From: a virus
Length of the DNA stretch: 40,885 nt
Strand: one strand, 5' to 3'
UHGV virus genome: UHGV-0869933
Shown: one piece after another, positions 12,368 to 22,193 of the stretch
Layout: each line of letters begins with the position of its first letter
Position numbering within the stretch: position 1 is the first letter of the stretch
Made by a program: the position numbers and the translations under genes
The notes under the pieces: generated by a model
What the model was told of the DNA's origin: nothing
The model's database searches: none
What the model saw: only the letters and a program-made list of their open reading frames with translations

Positions 12368-12844
12368 TTACATATAAAAATCGAACGACATCTGTTGTGT
12401 TCTCACGCCAATTGTTTCCAGTACGATATCCGCAAATGTATCTGCCTGCCATTCTGCATCCTCAATACGAGTAGGTTCTTTAACTGAAAAGTGTAAAACT
12501 GCTTTGTGTCCAAGAAGCAAATGACCTAGCTCGTGGAAGATAACAGCAAGTGCATGCTCTTCCCCAAGGCAAGCATTCACATATATTTTATTGGGAACCG
12601 TAATTGTTAGAGAAGCGGGGTCACAATGTCCGATAGTTAGATCATACGTCAGAGCCTCCCACTCTTTGTCGGTCCTGACGTCAAGAGTAACCCCATAAAT
12701 TGACAGGCTTTCAAAGAACATATCATAACGCTTTCTTTTGCGCTTTGAGGCTGTAAGACCAATAGCATTACAGAAGTTTATAGCTCTGTAGGCTATTTCT
12801 TCTTCTTGCATCGGTGACACCCTGTTACCTCTCATTTGATACAT
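12368..12844 (-). CDS. ImmA/IrrE-family (COG2856-like) zinc metallopeptidase
   Basis: HEXXH in FHELGHLLLGH; about 150 aa; 2 nt downstream of the XRE-HTH gene; alternative start codons in the first 12 codons. Confidence 0.65.
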   Translation of the reverse strand: MYQMRGNRVSPMQEEEIAYRAINFCNAIGLTASKRKRKRYDMFFESLSIYGVTLDVRTDKEWEALTYDLTIGHCDPASLTITVPNKIYVNACLGEEHALAVIFHELGHLLLGHKAVLHFSVKEPTRIEDAEWQADTFADIVLETIGVRTQQMSFDFYM

Positions 12845-12846
12845 AA

Positions 12847-13206
12847 TTACCCCTCATTGTTATTAATCTTTTGCAATAAATCTGCAAAACTCTTTAGCTG
12901 TTCCGGCGTAAACTGCGACTTAGCGAATCCCGCTACAAGCATTTTCTGTTGCTGAGACAAACCGTTTACTGGAACTGAGTCATTCGCAACTGCCGCTAAC
13001 TCCTGTAACCCTTCAATTTCTACACCTTTGGCCTTGAAGTAAGAATCAATCTTCTTAACCCACTTCAGAGGTATTTTTTTGCTACCAGTTTCTAAACCGC
13101 TAAGAAACGCTGGCGTAGTGCCCAGTTCTTGAGACATAGTCAGAAGAGTACTGTCAGTATCGATCCTCGCTTTTCTAACGGCCTTACCGAATTCAGTGAG
13201 TGCCAT
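12847..13206 (-). CDS. XRE-family helix-turn-helix transcriptional regulator
   Basis: 119 aa; N-terminal HTH (TLLTMSQELGTTPAFLSGLETG); own promoter-like region with CTTGC-N5-GCAAG inverted repeat upstream. Confidence 0.65.
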   Translation of the reverse strand: MALTEFGKAVRKARIDTDSTLLTMSQELGTTPAFLSGLETGSKKIPLKWVKKIDSYFKAKGVEIEGLQELAAVANDSVPVNGLSQQQKMLVAGFAKSQFTPEQLKSFADLLQKINNNEG

Positions 13207-13361
13207 GATTTTATCCTCAATTTGTTGATTTAGCAGACTTGCCTAACGCAAGCCTGATGGGCGCTTAAATTCTAATTCCTAAAATTTACCATATACGAAA
13301 GCAAAGTAAACCTTTTTAGTTAAAAAATCTCCTTTAAGGGAATTTTTTTCACAAAAAGAAC

Positions 13362-13381
13362 AAAACCCGCCGAAGCGGGTT
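13362..13381 (-). terminator. Terminator hairpin AACCCGC-CGAA-GCGGGTT (copy 2), downstream of hok
   Basis: Near-identical to the hairpin at 12014-12037; T-rich tail on the minus strand. Confidence 0.5.
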
Positions 13382-13449
13382 AAGTGCGGGTGCGTTGAGG
13401 ATGCCTGACACATCAGAGGTGGCGAGGGATTTCTCCCCCGCCAGGTCTC

Positions 13450-13605
13450 TTACTCCTCAGGTTCGTAAGCTGTGAAGACAGCGACCTCCGTCTGGCCGGT
13501 TCGGATTCGTACCTCGCAGAGGTCTTTCCTCGTTACCAGTGCCGTCACAATGACGGTTAAACAGATGACGATCAGGGCGATTAGCATCGCCTTTTGCTGC
13601 TTCAT
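13450..13605 (-). CDS. hokD: Hok/Gef-family type I toxin (HokD/RelF-like)
   Basis: MKQQKAMLIALIVICLTVIVTALVTRKDLCEVRIRTGQTEVAVFTAYEPEE matches the Qin HokD (RelF) sequence as I recall it; the track ORF carries a mok-like upstream extension. Confidence 0.85.
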   Translation of the reverse strand: MKQQKAMLIALIVICLTVIVTALVTRKDLCEVRIRTGQTEVAVFTAYEPEE

Positions 13606-13886
13606 AGCCTGCTTCTCCTTGCCTTTCGGCACGTAAGAGGCTAACCTACGTGTGTAGAGCATAGATATGGCCTCAGATTAATGTTAAGCGTCTTGCCGGA
13701 CGCGTAATGTTAACTGGGGCTTTTCTCTATCTGCCTTTTGGTGTTCATGCCTGAGACAGATAGCCTCAAGCACCCGCTGCAATTCTACTTAACTCTCCTT
13801 TTCCCGCAAACCGTTTTTATCCCCAGCGGCAAATCGAATACACCACCAGCGCCACCGCCATCGCAATTCCTACCGTTGTTAATGCT

Positions 13887-19148: not shown

Positions 19149-19574
19149 TTAGTGCATCACCACAGCATTCCCTGCCGGGCCGCCGCGATTCATCTGGTCA
19201 TACAAAACAACCGCTGACGCAACAAAATCATCGACATCCTTCACCAGCCGATCCCTCCGTTCGACGATCTCACGGTAATATTCAGAACTGTGGCTGCGCA
19301 TACGGGCCACCAGCAAAGGCGGCATCGCCTTTTCGATCGCCGGTAACAGAGCCTGCATTTTTTCAACAGCATCAGGGGTGTCTTTCTCTACCCAGCGGAA
19401 AATTTTCTGGGTATTGCGAGCCAGGGCTTCCGGATGGCTGTCGTCATACAGTTCTGGGAACGTCATACCCAACTCAAAATAAGCCTGGGTTATTCCAGCT
19501 GCTGGAACTTTTTCGCCATCAGGACGCGCCCAGGCATTCATCGCCATGCGGATGTGTTCATGCTTGATTTTCAT
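19149..19574 (-). CDS. YdaT-like protein (cII-position gene)
   Basis: 141 aa directly downstream of the Cro-like gene; size and position match the Rac YdaS/YdaT pair; assignment by context. Confidence 0.45.
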   Translation of the reverse strand: MKIKHEHIRMAMNAWARPDGEKVPAAGITQAYFELGMTFPELYDDSHPEALARNTQKIFRWVEKDTPDAVEKMQALLPAIEKAMPPLLVARMRSHSSEYYREIVERRDRLVKDVDDFVASAVVLYDQMNRGGPAGNAVVMH

Positions 19575-19839
19575 GAATCAAGCTCCTAGAAAGTGGTTGT
19601 GTTAACGTTTTGGTATCTTCCAGCTCGGGCCAAATATTCATCCAATCAAAAGGCCTTAGTTGCTGACGTGTAACTTCACCATTACTGGCTCGCTCAATAA
19701 GGACACATAACGATGCCCCTAACACTTGACCTTTACTCAATGCCTTTCTTAGATAACCGATGCTGGTACCACACTCGCATGCAAACATACGCTGTTCATC
19801 TGACGAAAGAGAATTGAGAAATATTCTTAATTCTTCCAT
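19558..19839 (-). CDS. Cro-like HTH regulator (YdaS-like)
   Basis: 93 aa with HTH (CGTSIGYLRKALSKGQ); divergently transcribed from the repressor gene across an operator-rich 100-bp region. Confidence 0.55.
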   Translation of the reverse strand: MEELRIFLNSLSSDEQRMFACECGTSIGYLRKALSKGQVLGASLCVLIERASNGEVTRQQLRPFDWMNIWPELEDTKTLTQPLSRSLIHENQA

Positions 19840-19868
19840 AGCTACTCCTTAGTAAACACAGCAAAGAA

Positions 19869-19946
19869 TACCCACAGGTAAACAAAAGTCAATACCCACA
19901 GGTTGTTTACCTTGCGGTAATCGCATCTATTATTTACCTATGGACA
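19869..19946. promoter_or_regulatory. Right operator/promoter region with three 12-bp operator-like sites
   Basis: TACCCACAGGTA (19869-19880), TACCCACAGGTT (19893-19904), TACCTATGGACA (19935-19946); a -10 TATTAT sits 6 nt before the repressor ATG, implying a leaderless repressor transcript as for lambda cI. Confidence 0.5.
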
Positions 19947-20356
19947 AATATGAATTTAGACGACAGCAACTCATCAAAATTCGTGATGAGAAATGCGATG
20001 GTAAAGCGGTTAACGTGGCCAGAAAGATCGGGCGCGAGCCTTCTTATGTATCAAGAATGTTGTACCCAGAGGGGAAAAGGGAAAAACGGATCGCTGATGA
20101 TATGGTGGAGATTATCGAAGAGTCCTTTGGGTTACCCCGGGGATGGATGGATGGTATCGTTTCATCATCAACGAACACAGCCTCCAGTTATGAAACAAGG
20201 GTTCTAACGCCACGACAACGTATTTTTTTAGATCTCTTAGACGAACTGCCAGAAAGTGAAGCGGATAAATTATTAAAAACTCTTGAAGAGAAAAAACAGT
20301 ATTACAATATGATCTACGAAGAAATCCGTAAAAAGAAAGCACAAAACGCATCATAG
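19940..20356 (+). CDS. Phage repressor (cI-position HTH protein)
   Basis: 138 aa; N-terminal HTH (VARKIGREPSYVSRML); transcribed towards the early-left genes and int; flanked on both sides by related palindromic operators. Confidence 0.65.
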   Translation: MDKYEFRRQQLIKIRDEKCDGKAVNVARKIGREPSYVSRMLYPEGKREKRIADDMVEIIEESFGLPRGWMDGIVSSSTNTASSYETRVLTPRQRIFLDLLDELPESEADKLLKTLEEKKQYYNMIYEEIRKKKAQNAS

Positions 20357-20398
20357 CTCACCAAACAACTAGTCACCAGTTAAGACACCGCAAAAATT

Positions 20399-20435
20399 TA
20401 CCCATGGGTATTTACTTTTTAAATACCTATGGGTA
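20399..20435. promoter_or_regulatory. Left operator/promoter region (two palindromic sites over a pL-like promoter)
   Basis: TACCCATGGGTA (perfect palindrome, 20399-20410) and TACCTATGGGTA (20424-20435) overlap -35 TTTACC and -10 TAAATA of a promoter reading into ydfA. Confidence 0.5.
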
Positions 20436-20621
20436 TCCTTCTTTTCATACCAACCCACCCCGCCCCACAGAATGCAGGGCAATACTTCGAGTTACCAGGC
20501 AGTGGTCAGGGGTTAAGTAGCCAGCCCGAGGCGTAAGAACATGACGGCAGGGTTCAACTTTAATAACTATGCAGCAGGTTTTTGTTCCGCTACCCCGGCG
20601 TTAAGGGGAAATGAGGTCAGC

Positions 20622-20777
20622 ATGGATACTATCGATCTTGGCAACAACGAATCTCTGGTGTACGGCGTGTTTCCCAACCAGGACGGCACGTTCACCGCGA
20701 TGACGTATACCAAAAGCAAAACGTTTAAAACCGAAAATGGTGCCCGTCGCTGGCTGGAAAGAAACTCAGGTGAGTGA
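20622..20777 (+). CDS. ydfA: YdfA-like small protein (51 aa)
   Basis: MDTIDLGNNESLVYGVFPNQDGTFTAMTYTKSKTFKTENGARRWLERNSGE; size and order match the Qin ydfABC-dicF-dicB operon. Confidence 0.6.
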   Translation: MDTIDLGNNESLVYGVFPNQDGTFTAMTYTKSKTFKTENGARRWLERNSGE

Positions 20778-20778
20778 T

Positions 20779-20907
20779 ATGGATTTCGACACAATCATGG
20801 AAAAGGCTTACGAAGAATACTTCGAAGACCTTGCCGAAGGCGAAGAAGCTCTCAGCTTCAGTGAGTTTAAACAGGCGCTTTCCAGCTCGGCAAAATCTAA
20901 CGGCTGA
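20779..20907 (+). CDS. ydfB: YdfB-like small protein (42 aa)
   Basis: My translation: MDFDTIMEKAYEEYFEDLAEGEEALSFSEFKQALSSSAKSNG; starts 1 nt after the ydfA stop. Confidence 0.5.
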   Translation: MDFDTIMEKAYEEYFEDLAEGEEALSFSEFKQALSSSAKSNG

Positions 20908-20936
20908 TAAGCGAAGTAGCACCGCGAGGAATCAGT

Positions 20937-21155
20937 ATGCAGAAACGAGAACCCGTCATAATCGCGCCAGACTATACCGATGATGAACTTTATGAGTGGA
21001 TGCGCCAGAAAATTAATGCAGCGCAGGATCTGAAATGGGCTAATGAAGCCAGGGCTAAGCAGGCTGAAAATCTGTCCGCTCTGGAGCAGGATATCACCAA
21101 TCTGGAAAAAGCAGCGGCATTAAGCATTGCCAGAATGATTACATACCCGCGTTAA
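20937..21155 (+). CDS. ydfC: YdfC-like protein (72 aa)
   Basis: Track ORF of 72 aa in the expected position before dicF. Confidence 0.6.
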   Translation: MQKREPVIIAPDYTDDELYEWMRQKINAAQDLKWANEARAKQAENLSALEQDITNLEKAAALSIARMITYPR

Positions 21156-21496
21156 TAGCTAACCAACGAAGCTAAGGTTGGTAATTAAGGAGTTCTCCAC
21201 GGGTGAGGTGGAGTGCGTGCGCCGGACACGGGTGAGCATCCGGCACTGACAGTTTACTGAAAGGATATTTCCCTGAAAAGTCAGACCATAACGCGAAAGC
21301 GCACGGCGAGGTAGCTGGTTCATAGATAGCCTGTCGTTAAATTTTCGTCGACCGTGCGCTTCCGGTTGTGGCAATCCGCGAAATGGCGCGGCGGTAAGTA
21401 TGGCGGGGTTATTCCTTCCCCCGTTGAGGACACCGGGTTGTCAGGTTGACCATACGCTTAAGTGACAACTCCGCTGCAACGCCCTCTGTTATCAAT

Positions 21497-21555
21497 TTTC
21501 TGGTGACGTTTGGCGGTATCAGTTTTACTCCGTGACTGCTCTGCCGCCCTTTTTA
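21497..21555 (+). ncRNA. dicF: DicF small regulatory RNA
   Basis: TTTCTGGTGACGTTTGGCGGTATCAGTTTTACTCCGTGACTGCTCTGCCGCCCTTTTT matches the E. coli DicF sequence as I recall it; lies immediately upstream of dicB. Confidence 0.8.
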
Positions 21556-21723
21556 AAGTGAATTTTGTGATGCGGTGAATGCGGCTAAGCGCACGCGGAA
21601 CAGTTAAAACCAAAAACAGTGTTATGGGTGGATTCTCTGTATCCGGCGTTAATTGTTAACTGGTTAACGTCACCTGGAGGCACCAGGCACCGCATCACAA
21701 AACTCATTGTTGAGGGCGCGATA

Positions 21724-21912
21724 ATGAAAACGTTATTACCAAACGTTAATACGTCTGAAGGTTGTTTTGAAATTGGTGTCACTATCAGTAATCCTGTATT
21801 TACTGAAGATGCCATTAACAAAAGAAAACACGAACGGGAGTTATTAAATAAAGTATGCATTGTTTCAATGCTGGCCCGTTTACGTCTGATGCCAAAAGGA
21901 TGTGCACAATGA
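21724..21912 (+). CDS. dicB: Cell division inhibitor DicB
   Basis: MKTLLPNVNTSEGCFEIGVTISNPVFTEDAINKRKHERELLNKVCIVSMLARLRLMPKGCAQ, 62 aa, near-identical to K-12 DicB as recalled. Confidence 0.85.
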   Translation: MKTLLPNVNTSEGCFEIGVTISNPVFTEDAINKRKHERELLNKVCIVSMLARLRLMPKGCAQ

Positions 21913-22100
21913 ATCCAGTATTTGCACTTATTCTGACGGTTTTTCTTGTTTCCGGAGAGCCAGTTGATATTGCAGTCAGTGTTCACAGAACAATGCAGGA
22001 ATGTATGGCAGCAGCAACCGAACAGAAAATTCCAGGCAACTGTTATCCGGTCGATAAAGTTATTCACCAGGATAATAACGAAATCCCGGCAGGATTTTAA
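21909..22100 (+). CDS. ydfD: YdfD-like small membrane protein
   Basis: MNPVFALILTVFLVSGEPVDIAVSVHRTM ..., 63 aa; ATGA overlap with dicB. Confidence 0.7.
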   Translation: MNPVFALILTVFLVSGEPVDIAVSVHRTMQECMAAATEQKIPGNCYPVDKVIHQDNNEIPAGF

Positions 22101-22193
22101 AACAGCACCGTAATAAATATCCAGTTTCATTCTTATATGTCAGCAATGGCAGAGATTTGTTCACCCTTAAATCTGTGATGAGGTTTACCAATA

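What the first reader, a model, noticed from the sequence alone, without database searches (positions are those of the whole stretch)
19850..20440. Immunity region with five related 12-bp operator-like sites and a probable leaderless repressor transcript
The palindrome TACCCATGGGTA and variants occur twice over the pL-like promoter (20399-20435) and three times in the divergent repressor/Cro-like interval (19869-19946). The last site overlaps the repressor start codon, and a TATTAT -10 sits 6 nt upstream of that ATG, echoing the leaderless cI mRNA from lambda PRM. The repressor differs from DicA, although the adjacent operon is Qin-like, so the immunity specificity is a mosaic.
Basis: partly seen in the sequence, partly recalled or inferred. 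Interest (0 to 1): 0.4.

Follow-up and report, generated by a model that had tools for sequence, protein, structure and literature searches.

The report
Phage immunity switch with leaderless repressor
This is the on/off control region of a lambda-like E. coli phage: five short palindromic repressor-binding sites over three promoters, and a repressor gene probably transcribed from its own start codon; the design is well known, but this version has no experimental description that I could find.

Summary
The finding is real and mostly read correctly. Exact TACC-N4-GGTA occurs 4 times in the window (0.13 expected), all at 19869-20435. A fifth site, 19893-19904, ends in GGTT.

I compared 44 loci encoding the same N-terminal DNA-binding domain: the window, E. 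coli phage mEp043, and 42 Gamma/Betaproteobacterial genome loci. They hold 124 exact sites (3.4 expected), 118 at five fixed places:
- OR1, OR2 and OR3 at -72, -47 and -32 from the repressor ATG.
- An OL2/OL1 pair 25-26 bp apart on the downstream promoter.

The real third OR site is 19908-19919.

In 35 of 44 loci the best -10 hexamer ends 6-7 nt before the ATG. Most loci have no Shine-Dalgarno match and there is no alternative start, so a leaderless mRNA is strongly supported, though not mapped.

The repressor joins an mEp043-cI-type domain to a DicA-like C-terminal tail, with no S24 peptidase. Its neighbours are:
- a YdaS-family Cro;
- a YdaT 96% identical to the CP-933P protein, with its exact published operator;
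- a ydfABC-dicF-dicB operon 96.7% identical to Qin.

Verdict: an uncharacterised immunity type of a known kind, of modest interest.

The parts
19149..19574 (-). YdaT-family gene, the cII analogue
   Evidence: Pfam YdaT_toxin, E 2.6e-9. PHROG 'CII-like transcriptional activator'. About 96% identical to the crystallised CP-933P YdaT, PDB 8bt1, E 1e-88.
19564..19581 (.). YdaT operator (the OM type), TTGATTTTCATGAATCAA, lying over the ydaT start codon at the end of the cro-like gene. It probably marks a PRE-like establishment promoter pointing at the repressor gene.
   Evidence: It is the only match in the window to TTGATT-N6-AATCAA, and it is exact. That motif and that position are the footprinted YdaT site of CP-933P (PMC9986795). 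Promoter activity here is inferred.
19558..19839 (-). Cro-like gene (YdaS family, 93 aa) with an AGGAG ribosome-binding site at 19845-19849
   Evidence: Weak Pfam YdaS match, 25.8 bits, below the 30-bit cutoff. 44 bits to PDB 8c7k/8co2, 'antirepressor protein Cro'. 73% identical to the annotated Cro of phage mEp043. A homologue sits divergently in 33 of 42 genome loci.
19865..19892 (-). PR-like promoter: -35 TTGACT (19892..19887), 16-nt spacer, -10 TATTCT (19870..19865)
   Evidence: Promoter scan, 9 of 12 matches. The same build recurs in the related loci: the -35 lies directly after OR2, and the -10 is the last TA of OR1 plus 4 nt.
19869..19880 (.). OR1, TACCCACAGGTA. It overlaps the PR spacer and -10.
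   Evidence: Exact core match. A site at -70 to -76 is present in 38 of 44 loci, with core positions 97-100% conserved.
19893..19904 (.). OR2, TACCCACAGGTT. It abuts the PR -35. Its centre is at -41.5 from the inferred PRM start.
   Evidence: One mismatch. Present at -46 to -51 in 35 of 44 loci. The last two positions are systematically degenerate: GGTT, GGGA or GGTC.
19908..19919 (.). OR3, TACCTTGCGGTA. It overlaps the PRM -35.
   Evidence: Exact core match. Present at -31 to -36 in 35 of 44 loci. Its central four bases are unconstrained, unlike the other sites.
19906..19933 (+). PRM-like promoter: -35 TTTACC (19906-19911), 16-nt spacer, -10 TATTAT (19928-19933). The inferred start is the A of the ATG at 19940.
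   Evidence: Promoter scan, 9 of 12 matches. The best -10 hexamer ends 6-7 nt before the ATG in 35 of 44 loci. The window has no Shine-Dalgarno match.
19940..20356 (+). Repressor gene (138 aa): helix-turn-helix domain at residues 1-74, disordered linker at 75-86, DicA-like helical hairpin at 87-138
   Evidence: PHROG 5736 'transcriptional regulator', E 5e-69. The N-terminal domain is 70-78% identical to that of 221-242-aa S24-peptidase repressors and about 76% identical to mEp043 cI. The C-terminal part matches DicA. AlphaFold2 model, mean pLDDT 83.
20399..20410 (.). OL2, TACCCATGGGTA, directly upstream of the PL -35
   Evidence: Exact match. An OL pair spaced 24-26 bp (25 or 26 in every listed pair) lies downstream of the repressor operon in 30 of 44 loci.
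20424..20435 (.). OL1, TACCTATGGGTA. It overlaps the PL spacer and -10.
   Evidence: Exact match. Conserved as the second member of the pair.
20411..20439 (+). PL-like promoter: -35 TTTACT (20411-20416), 17-nt spacer, -10 TATCCT (20434-20439). It drives ydfABC-dicF-dicB-ydfD-exo-xis-int.
   Evidence: Only 8 of 12 matches, so below the scan threshold. The layout GGTA-TTGACn ... GGTAnnnT is conserved in the related loci. It is the analogue of Qin dicBp (PMC10448788).
20399..20435 (+). The two OL palindromes can pair as a 16-bp RNA hairpin followed by UCCUUCUUUUC. It may act as a terminator for read-through repressor transcripts.
   Evidence: Terminator scan. Folding energy -22.2 kcal/mol, z-score -6.2. 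The T-rich tail is absent in the Salmonella relative.
20584..22185 (+). Qin-like block: ydfA, ydfB, ydfC, DicF RNA (21498-21549), dicB, ydfD
   Evidence: 96.7% identical over 1602 bp to K-12 Qin. Rfam DicF, 76.7 bits. PGAP annotation of the near-identical prophage in strain SW4848.

Best explanation
Window 19558-20440 is the immunity switch of a lambda-like temperate phage. All binding, activation and transcript-start steps below are inferred from geometry and comparison. What is shown directly is the positions, their conservation, and the protein homologies.

**Repressor and sites.** The 138-aa repressor probably binds as a dimer, through an Xre-type helix-turn-helix whose recognition helix is PSYVSRML. 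Its targets are 12-bp palindromes, TACC-N4-GGTA.

**Right-hand side.**
- OR1 (19869) and OR2 (19893) lie over the -10/spacer and the upstream edge of the -35 of PR. Their occupancy would shut off the Cro-like gene, ydaT and the replication genes.
- OR2 is centred at -41.5 from the PRM start. Lambda CI at OR2 sits at -42, so OR2-bound repressor probably also activates the weak PRM.
- OR3 (19908) covers the PRM -35 and has a relaxed centre. It is the likely low-affinity site for negative autoregulation.

**Left-hand side.** OL2 and OL1 (20399, 20424) bracket the -35 and -10 of PL in the same geometry as PR. They would silence ydfABC-dicF-dicB-exo-xis-int.

**Leaderless mRNA.** PRM starts transcription at the A of the ATG (19940), so the maintenance mRNA has no leader, as for lambda cI and CP-933P paaR2.

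**Other players.**
- The Cro-like protein presumably competes for the same sites.
- YdaT bound at 19564-19581 presumably drives a leadered establishment transcript.

**Induction.** The C-terminal domain is a DicA-like helical hairpin, not an S24 peptidase. Induction should therefore not go through RecA-stimulated self-cleavage. An antirepressor or another route is expected.
For: **Site statistics and conservation**
- 4 exact sites in the window against 0.13 expected, all in 19869-20435.
- The 42 genome loci were retrieved by protein patterns of the DNA-binding domain, not by the DNA motif. Phage mEp043 was retrieved by a protein search with the same domain.
- With the window, the 44 loci hold 124 exact sites in 223 kb against 3.4 expected. 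118 of them are at the five canonical places.
- All 44 sequences from -80 to +6 are distinct. The TACC and GGTA positions are nonetheless 97-100% conserved, while the N4 centre and the flanks vary.

**Link to the repressor domain**
- Three loci with an altered recognition helix lack the sites: L039 and L043 (ASISHM / ATISHL) and L023.
- Five Klebsiella loci lack a Cro-like gene. All five keep OR1. Three keep OR3 and four keep the OL pair. The sites therefore track the repressor domain.

**Promoter layout**
- PR and PL share one layout: the -35 lies right after O2, and the -10 is the last TA of O1 plus 4 nt.
- PRM: the -35 TTTACC overlaps OR3. The best -10 hexamer ends 6-7 nt before the ATG in 35 of 44 loci. 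Most loci have no Shine-Dalgarno match.
- The ORF has no other in-frame start after the upstream stop.
- About 95 of the 150 listed family representatives begin at the MDKYE methionine.

**Protein evidence**
- AlphaFold2 model with mean pLDDT 83. The fold resembles Xre-type repressors and the SPC32H Rep repressor.
- C-terminal similarity to DicA.
- YdaT 96% identical to PDB 8bt1, with its exact published operator (PMC9986795).

**Precedents**
- CP-933P paaR2 is leaderless and has OR and OL operators (PMC8630535).
- DicA activates its own gene and represses dicBp (PMC3441716, PMC10448788).
Against: - No experiment shows binding, activation or the transcript start for this module.
- The PL hexamers in the window are weak (8 of 12) and fell below the scan threshold.
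- OR2 and OR3 are only 15 bp apart centre to centre, unlike lambda's 23 bp. Lambda-style stepwise filling may therefore not apply.
- There is no third OL site.
- The window's repressor allele changes the conserved basic loop from KKGKK to KREK. It matches none of 822 complete E. coli genomes carrying the gene. This copy may be impaired, or it may carry homopolymer sequencing errors.
- Conservation among related loci partly reflects shared ancestry.
- Cro is co-inherited in most loci, so comparison alone cannot cleanly separate repressor sites from Cro sites.
Confidence: 0.75

Rival explanations
1. The inverted repeat at 20399-20435 is mainly an intrinsic terminator for the repressor transcript. 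It would protect the cell from read-through into the toxic dicF-dicB operon, rather than act as a pair of operators.
For: - The terminator scan reports a 16-bp stem followed by TCCTTCTTTT.
- The RNA folds at -22.2 kcal/mol with z-score -6.2, and none of 200 shuffles folded as well.
- Only 42 nt separate the repressor stop codon from the stem. No other terminator-like hairpin was reported in that stretch.
Against: - Any two copies of one palindrome 25 bp apart must pair, so the hairpin is an automatic by-product.
- The stem is AT-rich, with 5 G-C pairs of 16.
- The pair is conserved as TACC-N4-GGTA sites with a -35 between them and a -10 at the 3' end in 30 loci, whatever lies upstream.
- The T-rich tail is missing in the closest cross-species relative, the Salmonella locus L046.
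- mEp043 has a separate GC-rich hairpin followed by a T run upstream of its OL pair.
- The two roles are not exclusive.
Confidence: 0.15
2. The repressor mRNA is not leaderless. It comes from an upstream promoter, such as the YdaT-dependent PRE-like promoter near 19564-19590, and is translated without a Shine-Dalgarno sequence. The TATTAT hexamer would then be incidental.
For: - An exact YdaT operator lies at 19564-19581. In CP-933P such a promoter does feed the repressor operon (PMC9986795, PMC8630535).
- The PRM -35 is weak (TTTACC).
- The number of promoter-scan hits in this region does not exceed the shuffles.
Against: - A -10-like hexamer at a fixed 6-7 nt from the ATG, with a -35 16-18 nt upstream, recurs in 35 of 44 loci, although the 6-7 nt between it and the ATG are unconserved.
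- That pattern is hard to explain unless transcription starts at the ATG.
- Lambda cI and paaR2 have both kinds of transcript, so a PRE transcript does not exclude a leaderless PRM transcript.
Confidence: 0.12
3. The reader's site over the start codon (19935-19946, TACCTATGGACA) is a working fourth operator that blocks PRM at +1.
For: It has 10 of 12 identity to the OL1 sequence, and it lies exactly at the inferred transcription start.
Against: - It has two mismatches in the eight core positions that are otherwise near-invariant.
- Matches at that looseness occur at chance frequency: 11 found against 9.6 expected.
- Its right half is simply the conserved codons ATG-GAY-AA.
- Its left half, TACC, occurs in none of the other 43 loci.
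Confidence: 0.07
4. The TACC-N4-GGTA sites are recognised only by the Cro-like (YdaS-family) protein, and the 138-aa protein binds elsewhere.
For: Cro-like homologues accompany the sites in 33 of 42 genome loci, in mEp043, and in the Salmonella and Serratia loci L046 and L047.
Against: - Five Klebsiella loci have the repressor domain but no Cro-like gene. All five keep OR1. Three keep OR3 and four keep the OL pair.
- Three loci with a changed repressor recognition helix lack the sites.
- OR3, OL1 and OL2 are placed to regulate the repressor's own promoter and PL.
Confidence: 0.04

Closest known systems
PaaR2 / YdaS / YdaT immunity region of cryptic prophage CP-933P (E. coli O157:H7), PMC8630535 and PMC9986795
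   Same: - Same gene order: a short repressor without a peptidase domain, divergent from a YdaS-family Cro and YdaT.
- An intergenic region of about 100 bp (97 bp there, 100 bp here).
- paaR2 was shown to be leaderless by 5' RACE, N-terminal sequencing and mass spectrometry.
- OR-type sites, plus a second operator cluster at a PL-like promoter.
- The YdaT here is about 96% identical to the crystallised protein, and its footprinted operator TTGATT-N6-AATCAA is present exactly and in the same position.
   Different: - The repressor start differs (MQKKE there, MDKYE here).
- The operators differ: 18-bp repeats with consensus GTTTAGTAA there, 12-bp TACC-N4-GGTA here.
- The Cro-like protein is only a distant relative (44 bits).
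- No paaA2-parE2 toxin-antitoxin genes follow the repressor here.
- The two are therefore heteroimmune relatives.
Phage lambda CI / Cro / OR-OL switch (textbook knowledge)
   Same: - Divergent PR and PRM with three operators, and a second operator cluster at PL.
- OR1 and OR2 are about 24 bp apart.
- OR2 is centred at about -42 from PRM.
- The intrinsically weaker sites are conserved as weak.
- The cI mRNA from PRM is leaderless.
   Different: - 12-bp sites rather than 17-bp sites.
- OR2 to OR3 spacing of 15 bp rather than 23 bp.
- Two OL sites rather than three.
- An unrelated DNA-binding domain.
- No S24 self-cleavage domain in this copy.
cI, Cro and operators of E. coli phage mEp043 (GenBank PV340537 / NC_019706)
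   Same: - Same N-terminal DNA-binding domain (about 76% identity), including the PSYVSRML helix.
- Cro 73% identical.
- The same five sites at -72, -47, -32 and a downstream pair. Same PRM geometry.
- The two phages probably share immunity specificity or have closely related specificities.
   Different: - mEp043 cI is 228 aa with an S24 peptidase C-terminal domain.
- It has a lambda-type cII and an N antiterminator downstream of PL.
- I found no paper describing its operators.
DicA / DicC / dicBp of cryptic prophage Qin (PMC3441716, PMC10448788)
   Same: - A short repressor (135 aa) lacking the Ala-Gly cleavage site.
- A homologous C-terminal domain: 33% identity over 46 residues, E 2e-7.
- The same downstream ydfABC-dicF-dicB operon (96.7% DNA identity from 20584).
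- DicA activates its own gene and represses dicBp.
   Different: - The DicA N-terminal domain is P22-C2-like and unrelated in sequence.
- The DicA operator Oc is TTGTTAGTCATAACTAACAA.
- The window has no homologue of the Qin antirepressor Rem.
Rep repressor of Salmonella phage SPC32H (PDB 5d50 and 5d4z, Rep-Ant complex)
   Same: It is the best structural match to the predicted model (Foldseek E 9e-4). It is a helix-turn-helix repressor whose solved structure includes a complex with an antirepressor (Ant).
   Different: Only 16-17% sequence identity and TM-scores of 0.36-0.47. The similarity is at the level of fold class.

Membership tests
Lambdoid CI/Cro immunity region | Divergently transcribed repressor and cro genes separated by a short regulatory region | tested here: met
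   The repressor (19940-20356, +) and the YdaS-family Cro (19558-19839, -) are 100 bp apart.
Lambdoid CI/Cro immunity region | Several related palindromic operators overlapping PR and PRM, plus a second cluster at PL | tested here: met
   OR1-3 and OL1-2 are placed relative to the promoter hexamers as in lambda. The layout is conserved in up to 38 of 44 loci.
Lambdoid CI/Cro immunity region | The repressor and Cro physically bind these operators and form a bistable switch | not testable with these tools
   This needs EMSA or footprinting and reporter assays. The only indirect support is that the sites co-occur with the recognition helix.
Lambdoid CI/Cro immunity region | A cII-type activator with its site next to cro | tested here: met
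   YdaT is 96% identical to PDB 8bt1. Its exact operator lies at 19564-19581 (PMC9986795).
Leaderless repressor mRNA (lambda cI from PRM; CP-933P paaR2) | The transcription start coincides with the A of the start codon | not testable with these tools
   No transcript data are available. The geometry is consistent: the -10 ends 6 nt before the ATG in the window and 6-7 nt before it in 35 of 44 loci.
Leaderless repressor mRNA (lambda cI from PRM; CP-933P paaR2) | No Shine-Dalgarno sequence and no alternative start codon | tested here: met
   The 16 nt upstream contain no AGGA, GGAG or GAGG. The ATG at 19940 is the first start after the in-frame stop. The MDKYE N-terminus is conserved across the family.
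DicA family (NCBIfam NF007257) | Full-length match above the curated cutoff (101 bits) | tested here: not met
   24.6 bits. Only residues 85-135 align, to model positions 81-131.
DicA family (NCBIfam NF007257) | DicA-type C-terminal domain | tested here: met
   BLASTP gives 33% identity over 46 residues, E 2e-7. The model predicts a helical hairpin at residues 91-137.
LexA / S24-peptidase phage repressors (Pfam PF00717) | C-terminal S24 self-cleavage domain | tested here: not met
   Pfam finds no hit in the 138-aa protein. Relatives with the same N-terminal domain do carry PF00717.
Intrinsic (Rho-independent) terminator, for 20399-20445 | A G+C-rich stem directly followed by a U tract, conserved in relatives | tested here: inconclusive
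   The stem is stable (-22.2 kcal/mol) but AT-rich, and the tail is interrupted. The tail is not conserved in Salmonella locus L046.

The most novel reading that the evidence does not exclude
The window may represent a widespread immunity cassette that has not been characterised. It would consist of one DNA-binding domain, a YdaS-type Cro, five operators at fixed positions, and a leaderless PRM.

- The cassette is kept almost base-for-base in layout from Enterobacterales to Neisseria, Burkholderiales and Xanthomonadales.
- In 11 relatives from Burkholderiales, Xanthomonadales and related lineages, cro also looks leaderless.
- The DNA-binding domain appears with several unrelated C-terminal modules: two or more S24 types, a DicA-like hairpin, and others.
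- The tight 15-bp OR2-OR3 spacing puts the two sites on nearly opposite faces of the helix. It may implement an either/or choice between PRM activation and PRM repression, which differs from the lambda scheme.
Probability: 0.25. Interest if true: 0.5.

Novelty: new member of a known kind. Interest (0 to 1): 0.35.

Why it matters
**Annotation.** About 820 of 5,426 complete E. coli genomes carry this repressor gene. PGAP labels it 'hypothetical protein'. Naming its operators, promoters and probable leaderless start gives a usable annotation. It also predicts which prophages are homoimmune: mEp043-type phages should be.

**Host physiology.** In this element the switch controls dicF and dicB, which affect host cell division and phage receptors. 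The conditions that flip the switch therefore matter for the host.

**A comparative test set.** The 44-locus set is a natural mutagenesis series. It has invariant TACC/GGTA cores, a deliberately weak OR2 half-site and a relaxed OR3 centre. It could be used to test how operator strength hierarchies and leaderless autoregulation are maintained when the repressor's sensor domain is swapped.

Tried and rejected
- **Pfam on the repressor:** no family.
- **Sequence search of the PDB with the repressor:** only chance-level hits, E of 0.13 or worse.
- **Full-text search for the operator sequences or a TACC-N4-GGTA motif:** only three unrelated papers.
- **mEp043 literature:** nothing on its operators.
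- **The start-codon site (19935-19946):** rejected as an operator, because it is not conserved and is at chance level.
- **The terminator reading of 20399-20435:** kept only as a possible secondary role.
- **A recombination joint with Qin inside the repressor gene:** rejected. The C-terminal domain is only 33% identical to DicA, and DNA homology starts at 20584.
- **A Rem-type antirepressor:** tblastn against the window gave E 0.22, so none was found.
- **PHROG scan of ten ORFs between 12.3 and 17.7 kb:** no annotated antirepressor. One 'metallo-protease' hit was not followed up.
- **A position matrix anchored on the ATG:** blurred by a 1-nt register difference between loci. I replaced it with per-locus scoring.
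- **PaaR2 sequence:** not available to me, so direct protein comparison was not done.
- **L047 file:** it did not reach the scripting machine. I read the locus with the sequence tools instead.
Full report
**What is in the sequence.**

The 100 bp between 19840 and 19939 separate two ORFs.
- A minus-strand ORF of 93 aa (19558-19839) has an AGGAG ribosome-binding site.
- A plus-strand ORF of 138 aa (19940-20356) has none.

Exact TACC-N4-GGTA occurs four times in the 40,885-base window, at 19869, 19908, 20399 and 20424. The expectation is 0.13, and none of 100 shuffles reached four. A fifth copy at 19893 ends in GGTT.

It has two core mismatches. At that looseness the window shows no excess: 11 matches against 9.6 expected.

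The promoter scan finds two promoters.
- TTTACC, 16 nt, TATTAT on the plus strand. The -10 ends 6 nt before the ATG.
- TTGACT, 16 nt, TATTCT on the minus strand.

**Identity of the genes.**

- The minus-strand ORF is a YdaS-family Cro. It has a weak Pfam match and 44 bits to PDB 8c7k/8co2, 'antirepressor protein Cro'.
- The next gene (19149-19574) is a YdaT, about 96% identical to the crystallised CP-933P protein.
- The footprinted YdaT operator TTGATT-N6-AATCAA is present exactly once in the window. It lies at 19564-19581, over the ydaT start, as in CP-933P.
- Downstream of the 138-aa ORF lie ydfA, ydfB, ydfC, DicF RNA (Rfam, 76.7 bits), dicB, ydfD, exo, xis and int.
- DNA identity to K-12 Qin is 96.7% over 1602 bp. 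It begins only at 20584.

**The repressor.**

Pfam and a PDB sequence search find nothing. PGAP calls the protein hypothetical. PHROGs places it in a 'transcriptional regulator' family.

Homologue searches show a two-part protein.
- Residues 1-74 begin MDKYE and contain REPSYVSRMLYPEGKKGKKRIADD. They are 70-78% identical to the N-terminus of 221-242-aa repressors that carry an S24 peptidase domain. Those relatives come from Salmonella, Edwardsiella, Klebsiella, Pantoea and others.
- The same domain is about 76% identical to cI of the functional lambdoid phage mEp043.

An AlphaFold2 model (mean pLDDT 83) shows three regions.
- Four helices at residues 3-62 form the helix-turn-helix domain. The motif itself is helices 23-30 and 34-41.
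- Residues 75-86 are a disordered linker.
- Residues 91-137 form a helical hairpin.

The structural neighbours are Xre-type repressors. The best is the Rep repressor of Salmonella phage SPC32H.

The family is modest in size and has many different C-termini. It has 540 cluster representatives at E of 1e-3 or better among 1.84 billion.

**The comparative test.**

Loci were retrieved with peptide patterns from the DNA-binding domain, not with the DNA motif. This gave 42 genome loci from Gamma- and Betaproteobacteria. I analysed them together with mEp043 and the window.

- All 44 upstream sequences are distinct.
- They hold 124 exact TACC-N4-GGTA sites in 223 kb, against 3.4 expected.
- 118 of these lie at five fixed places.

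| Site | Position | Loci with the site (of 44) |
|---|---|---|
| OR1 | -72/-73 from the repressor ATG | 38 |
| OR2 | -47/-48 | 35 |
| OR3 | -32/-33 | 35 |
| OL2 + OL1 | a pair 25-26 bp apart, downstream of the repressor operon | 30 |

In the window these are 19869, 19893, 19908, 20399 and 20424.

The sites differ from one another in consistent ways.
- The eight core positions are 97-100% conserved, while the centre and flanks vary.
- OR2 is systematically degenerate at its last two positions.
- OR3 has an unconstrained centre. The other four sites prefer Y at position 5 and R at position 8.

Several observations tie the sites to the repressor domain.
- Three loci whose recognition helix has changed lack the sites: L039, L043 and L023.
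- Five Klebsiella loci lack a Cro-like gene. All five keep OR1. Three keep OR3 and four keep the OL pair.
- The Salmonella and Serratia short-repressor relatives show the same layout.

**Promoters.**

PR and PL share one build in the window and in the relatives.
- The -35 (TTGACn) follows O2 directly.
- The -10 is the last TA of O1 plus four bases.

In the window, PL is TTTACT (20411-20416), 17 nt, TATCCT (20434-20439).

For PRM, the -35 TTTACC overlaps OR3. The best -10 hexamer ends 6-7 nt before the ATG in 35 of 44 loci, and those 6-7 nt are unconserved. The window has no Shine-Dalgarno match, and only 6 loci carry a 4-base partial match.

The ATG at 19940 is the first possible start after the upstream stop. 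The MDKYE start is conserved.

This is strong indirect evidence for a leaderless mRNA. The experimentally studied analogue, paaR2 of CP-933P, is leaderless by 5' RACE, N-terminal sequencing and mass spectrometry (PMC8630535).

With the start at 19940, OR2 is centred at -41.5 and OR1 at -65.5. From textbook knowledge, lambda CI sits at about -42 and -66 from PRM.

**Mechanism proposed.**

- Repressor at OR1 and OR2 blocks PR.
- Repressor at OR2 activates PRM.
- Repressor at OR3 represses PRM at high concentration.
- Repressor at OL1 and OL2 blocks PL, and with it dicF and dicB.
- The Cro-like protein competes for the same sites.
- YdaT at its operator supplies an establishment transcript.

The C-terminal domain is DicA-like and not an S24 peptidase. 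Direct RecA-dependent cleavage is therefore not expected. DicA is relieved by the antirepressor Rem (PMC10448788). The window has no Rem homologue and no annotated antirepressor among the ORFs I scanned.

All binding and activity steps are inferred.

**Rivals.**

- *Terminator.* The two OL palindromes fold into a 16-bp RNA hairpin (-22.2 kcal/mol, z-score -6.2) followed by a T-rich tail. That pairing is automatic for two copies of one palindrome. The tail is absent in the Salmonella relative. I keep a terminator role only as a possible extra.
- *Leadered transcript.* A PRE-type leadered transcript probably exists alongside the PRM transcript, not instead of it.

**Comparison and novelty.**

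The kind of system is well known from lambda, CP-933P PaaR2/YdaS/YdaT and Qin DicA/DicC.

The particular immunity type is what looks new. It consists of this DNA-binding domain, its Cro, the 12-bp TACC-N4-GGTA operators, and their fixed layout including the 15-bp OR2-OR3 spacing. My literature searches found no description of it.

The DicA operator (TTGTTAGTCATAACTAACAA, PMC3441716) and the PaaR2 repeats (GTTTAGTAA, PMC8630535) are different. I therefore rate it a new member of a known kind, with modest interest.

Noticed in passing
window 20070-20086: The repressor gene reads GGGGAAAAGGGAAAAACGG here. The common allele reads GGGGAAAAAGGGAAAAAAACGG. One A is missing from the first run and two from the second. 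This turns the conserved basic loop KKGKK into KREK. None of 822 complete E. coli genomes with this gene has the window's allele. Two have a +2 (frameshift) length, and frameshifted protein calls exist (P0009, P0018). The cause is either homopolymer slippage in the phage or sequencing error.
   Followed up: partly
window 26000-40885: Phage tail genes (tail fibre, J, tape measure) follow directly after the integrase. In strain SW4848 the near-identical prophage is flanked there by ompW. The window therefore looks like the excised or circular (attP-joined) phage form, which suggests an active phage rather than a cryptic remnant.
   Followed up: partly
L020, L025, L031, L032, L034, L035, L037, L038, L040-L042, positions about -87 to -60 from the repressor ATG: In these Burkholderiales, Xanthomonadales and related loci, the Cro-like start codon lies about 6-7 nt after the PR -10. 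An example is L034: TACCCGCAGGTAAATT-GTAGTC-ATG. Both divergent genes therefore appear leaderless, and the whole switch is only about 84 bp.
   Followed up: partly
L003, L005-L008 (Klebsiella), around locus position 2501: These loci have the same DNA-binding domain fused to an S24 peptidase. They have no Cro-like gene, no OR2 and no PR -35. All five keep OR1; three keep OR3 and four keep the OL pair. A possibly holin-like membrane ORF (two small hydrophobic ORFs) lies downstream. They may be a repressor-controlled lysis or bacteriocin-type module rather than a full prophage switch.
   Followed up: partly
L039 and L043 (Advenella), -60 to -35 from the ATG: These divergent family members have recognition helices ASISHM and ATISHL. 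They lack TACC-N4-GGTA. L039 carries a longer inverted repeat, ATACCGC-N8-GCGGTAT, and L043 a similar imperfect one. This looks like a co-change of helix and operator.
   Followed up: no
window 20446-20620: The roughly 175-nt leader between PL and ydfA is largely conserved in the Salmonella relative L046, but absent from K-12 Qin, whose homology starts at 20584. It begins ACCAACCCACCCCGCCCCACAGAATGCAGGGCAATACTTCGAG. An ORF at 20541-20777 extends the annotated ydfA upstream. Its function is unknown.
   Followed up: no
window 12368-13619: This cargo block differs from the block at the same place in SW4848. It holds a 158-aa ORF matching PHROG 'metallo-protease' (12368-12844) and a segment 97% identical to the Qin hokD region (13353-13619).
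   Followed up: no
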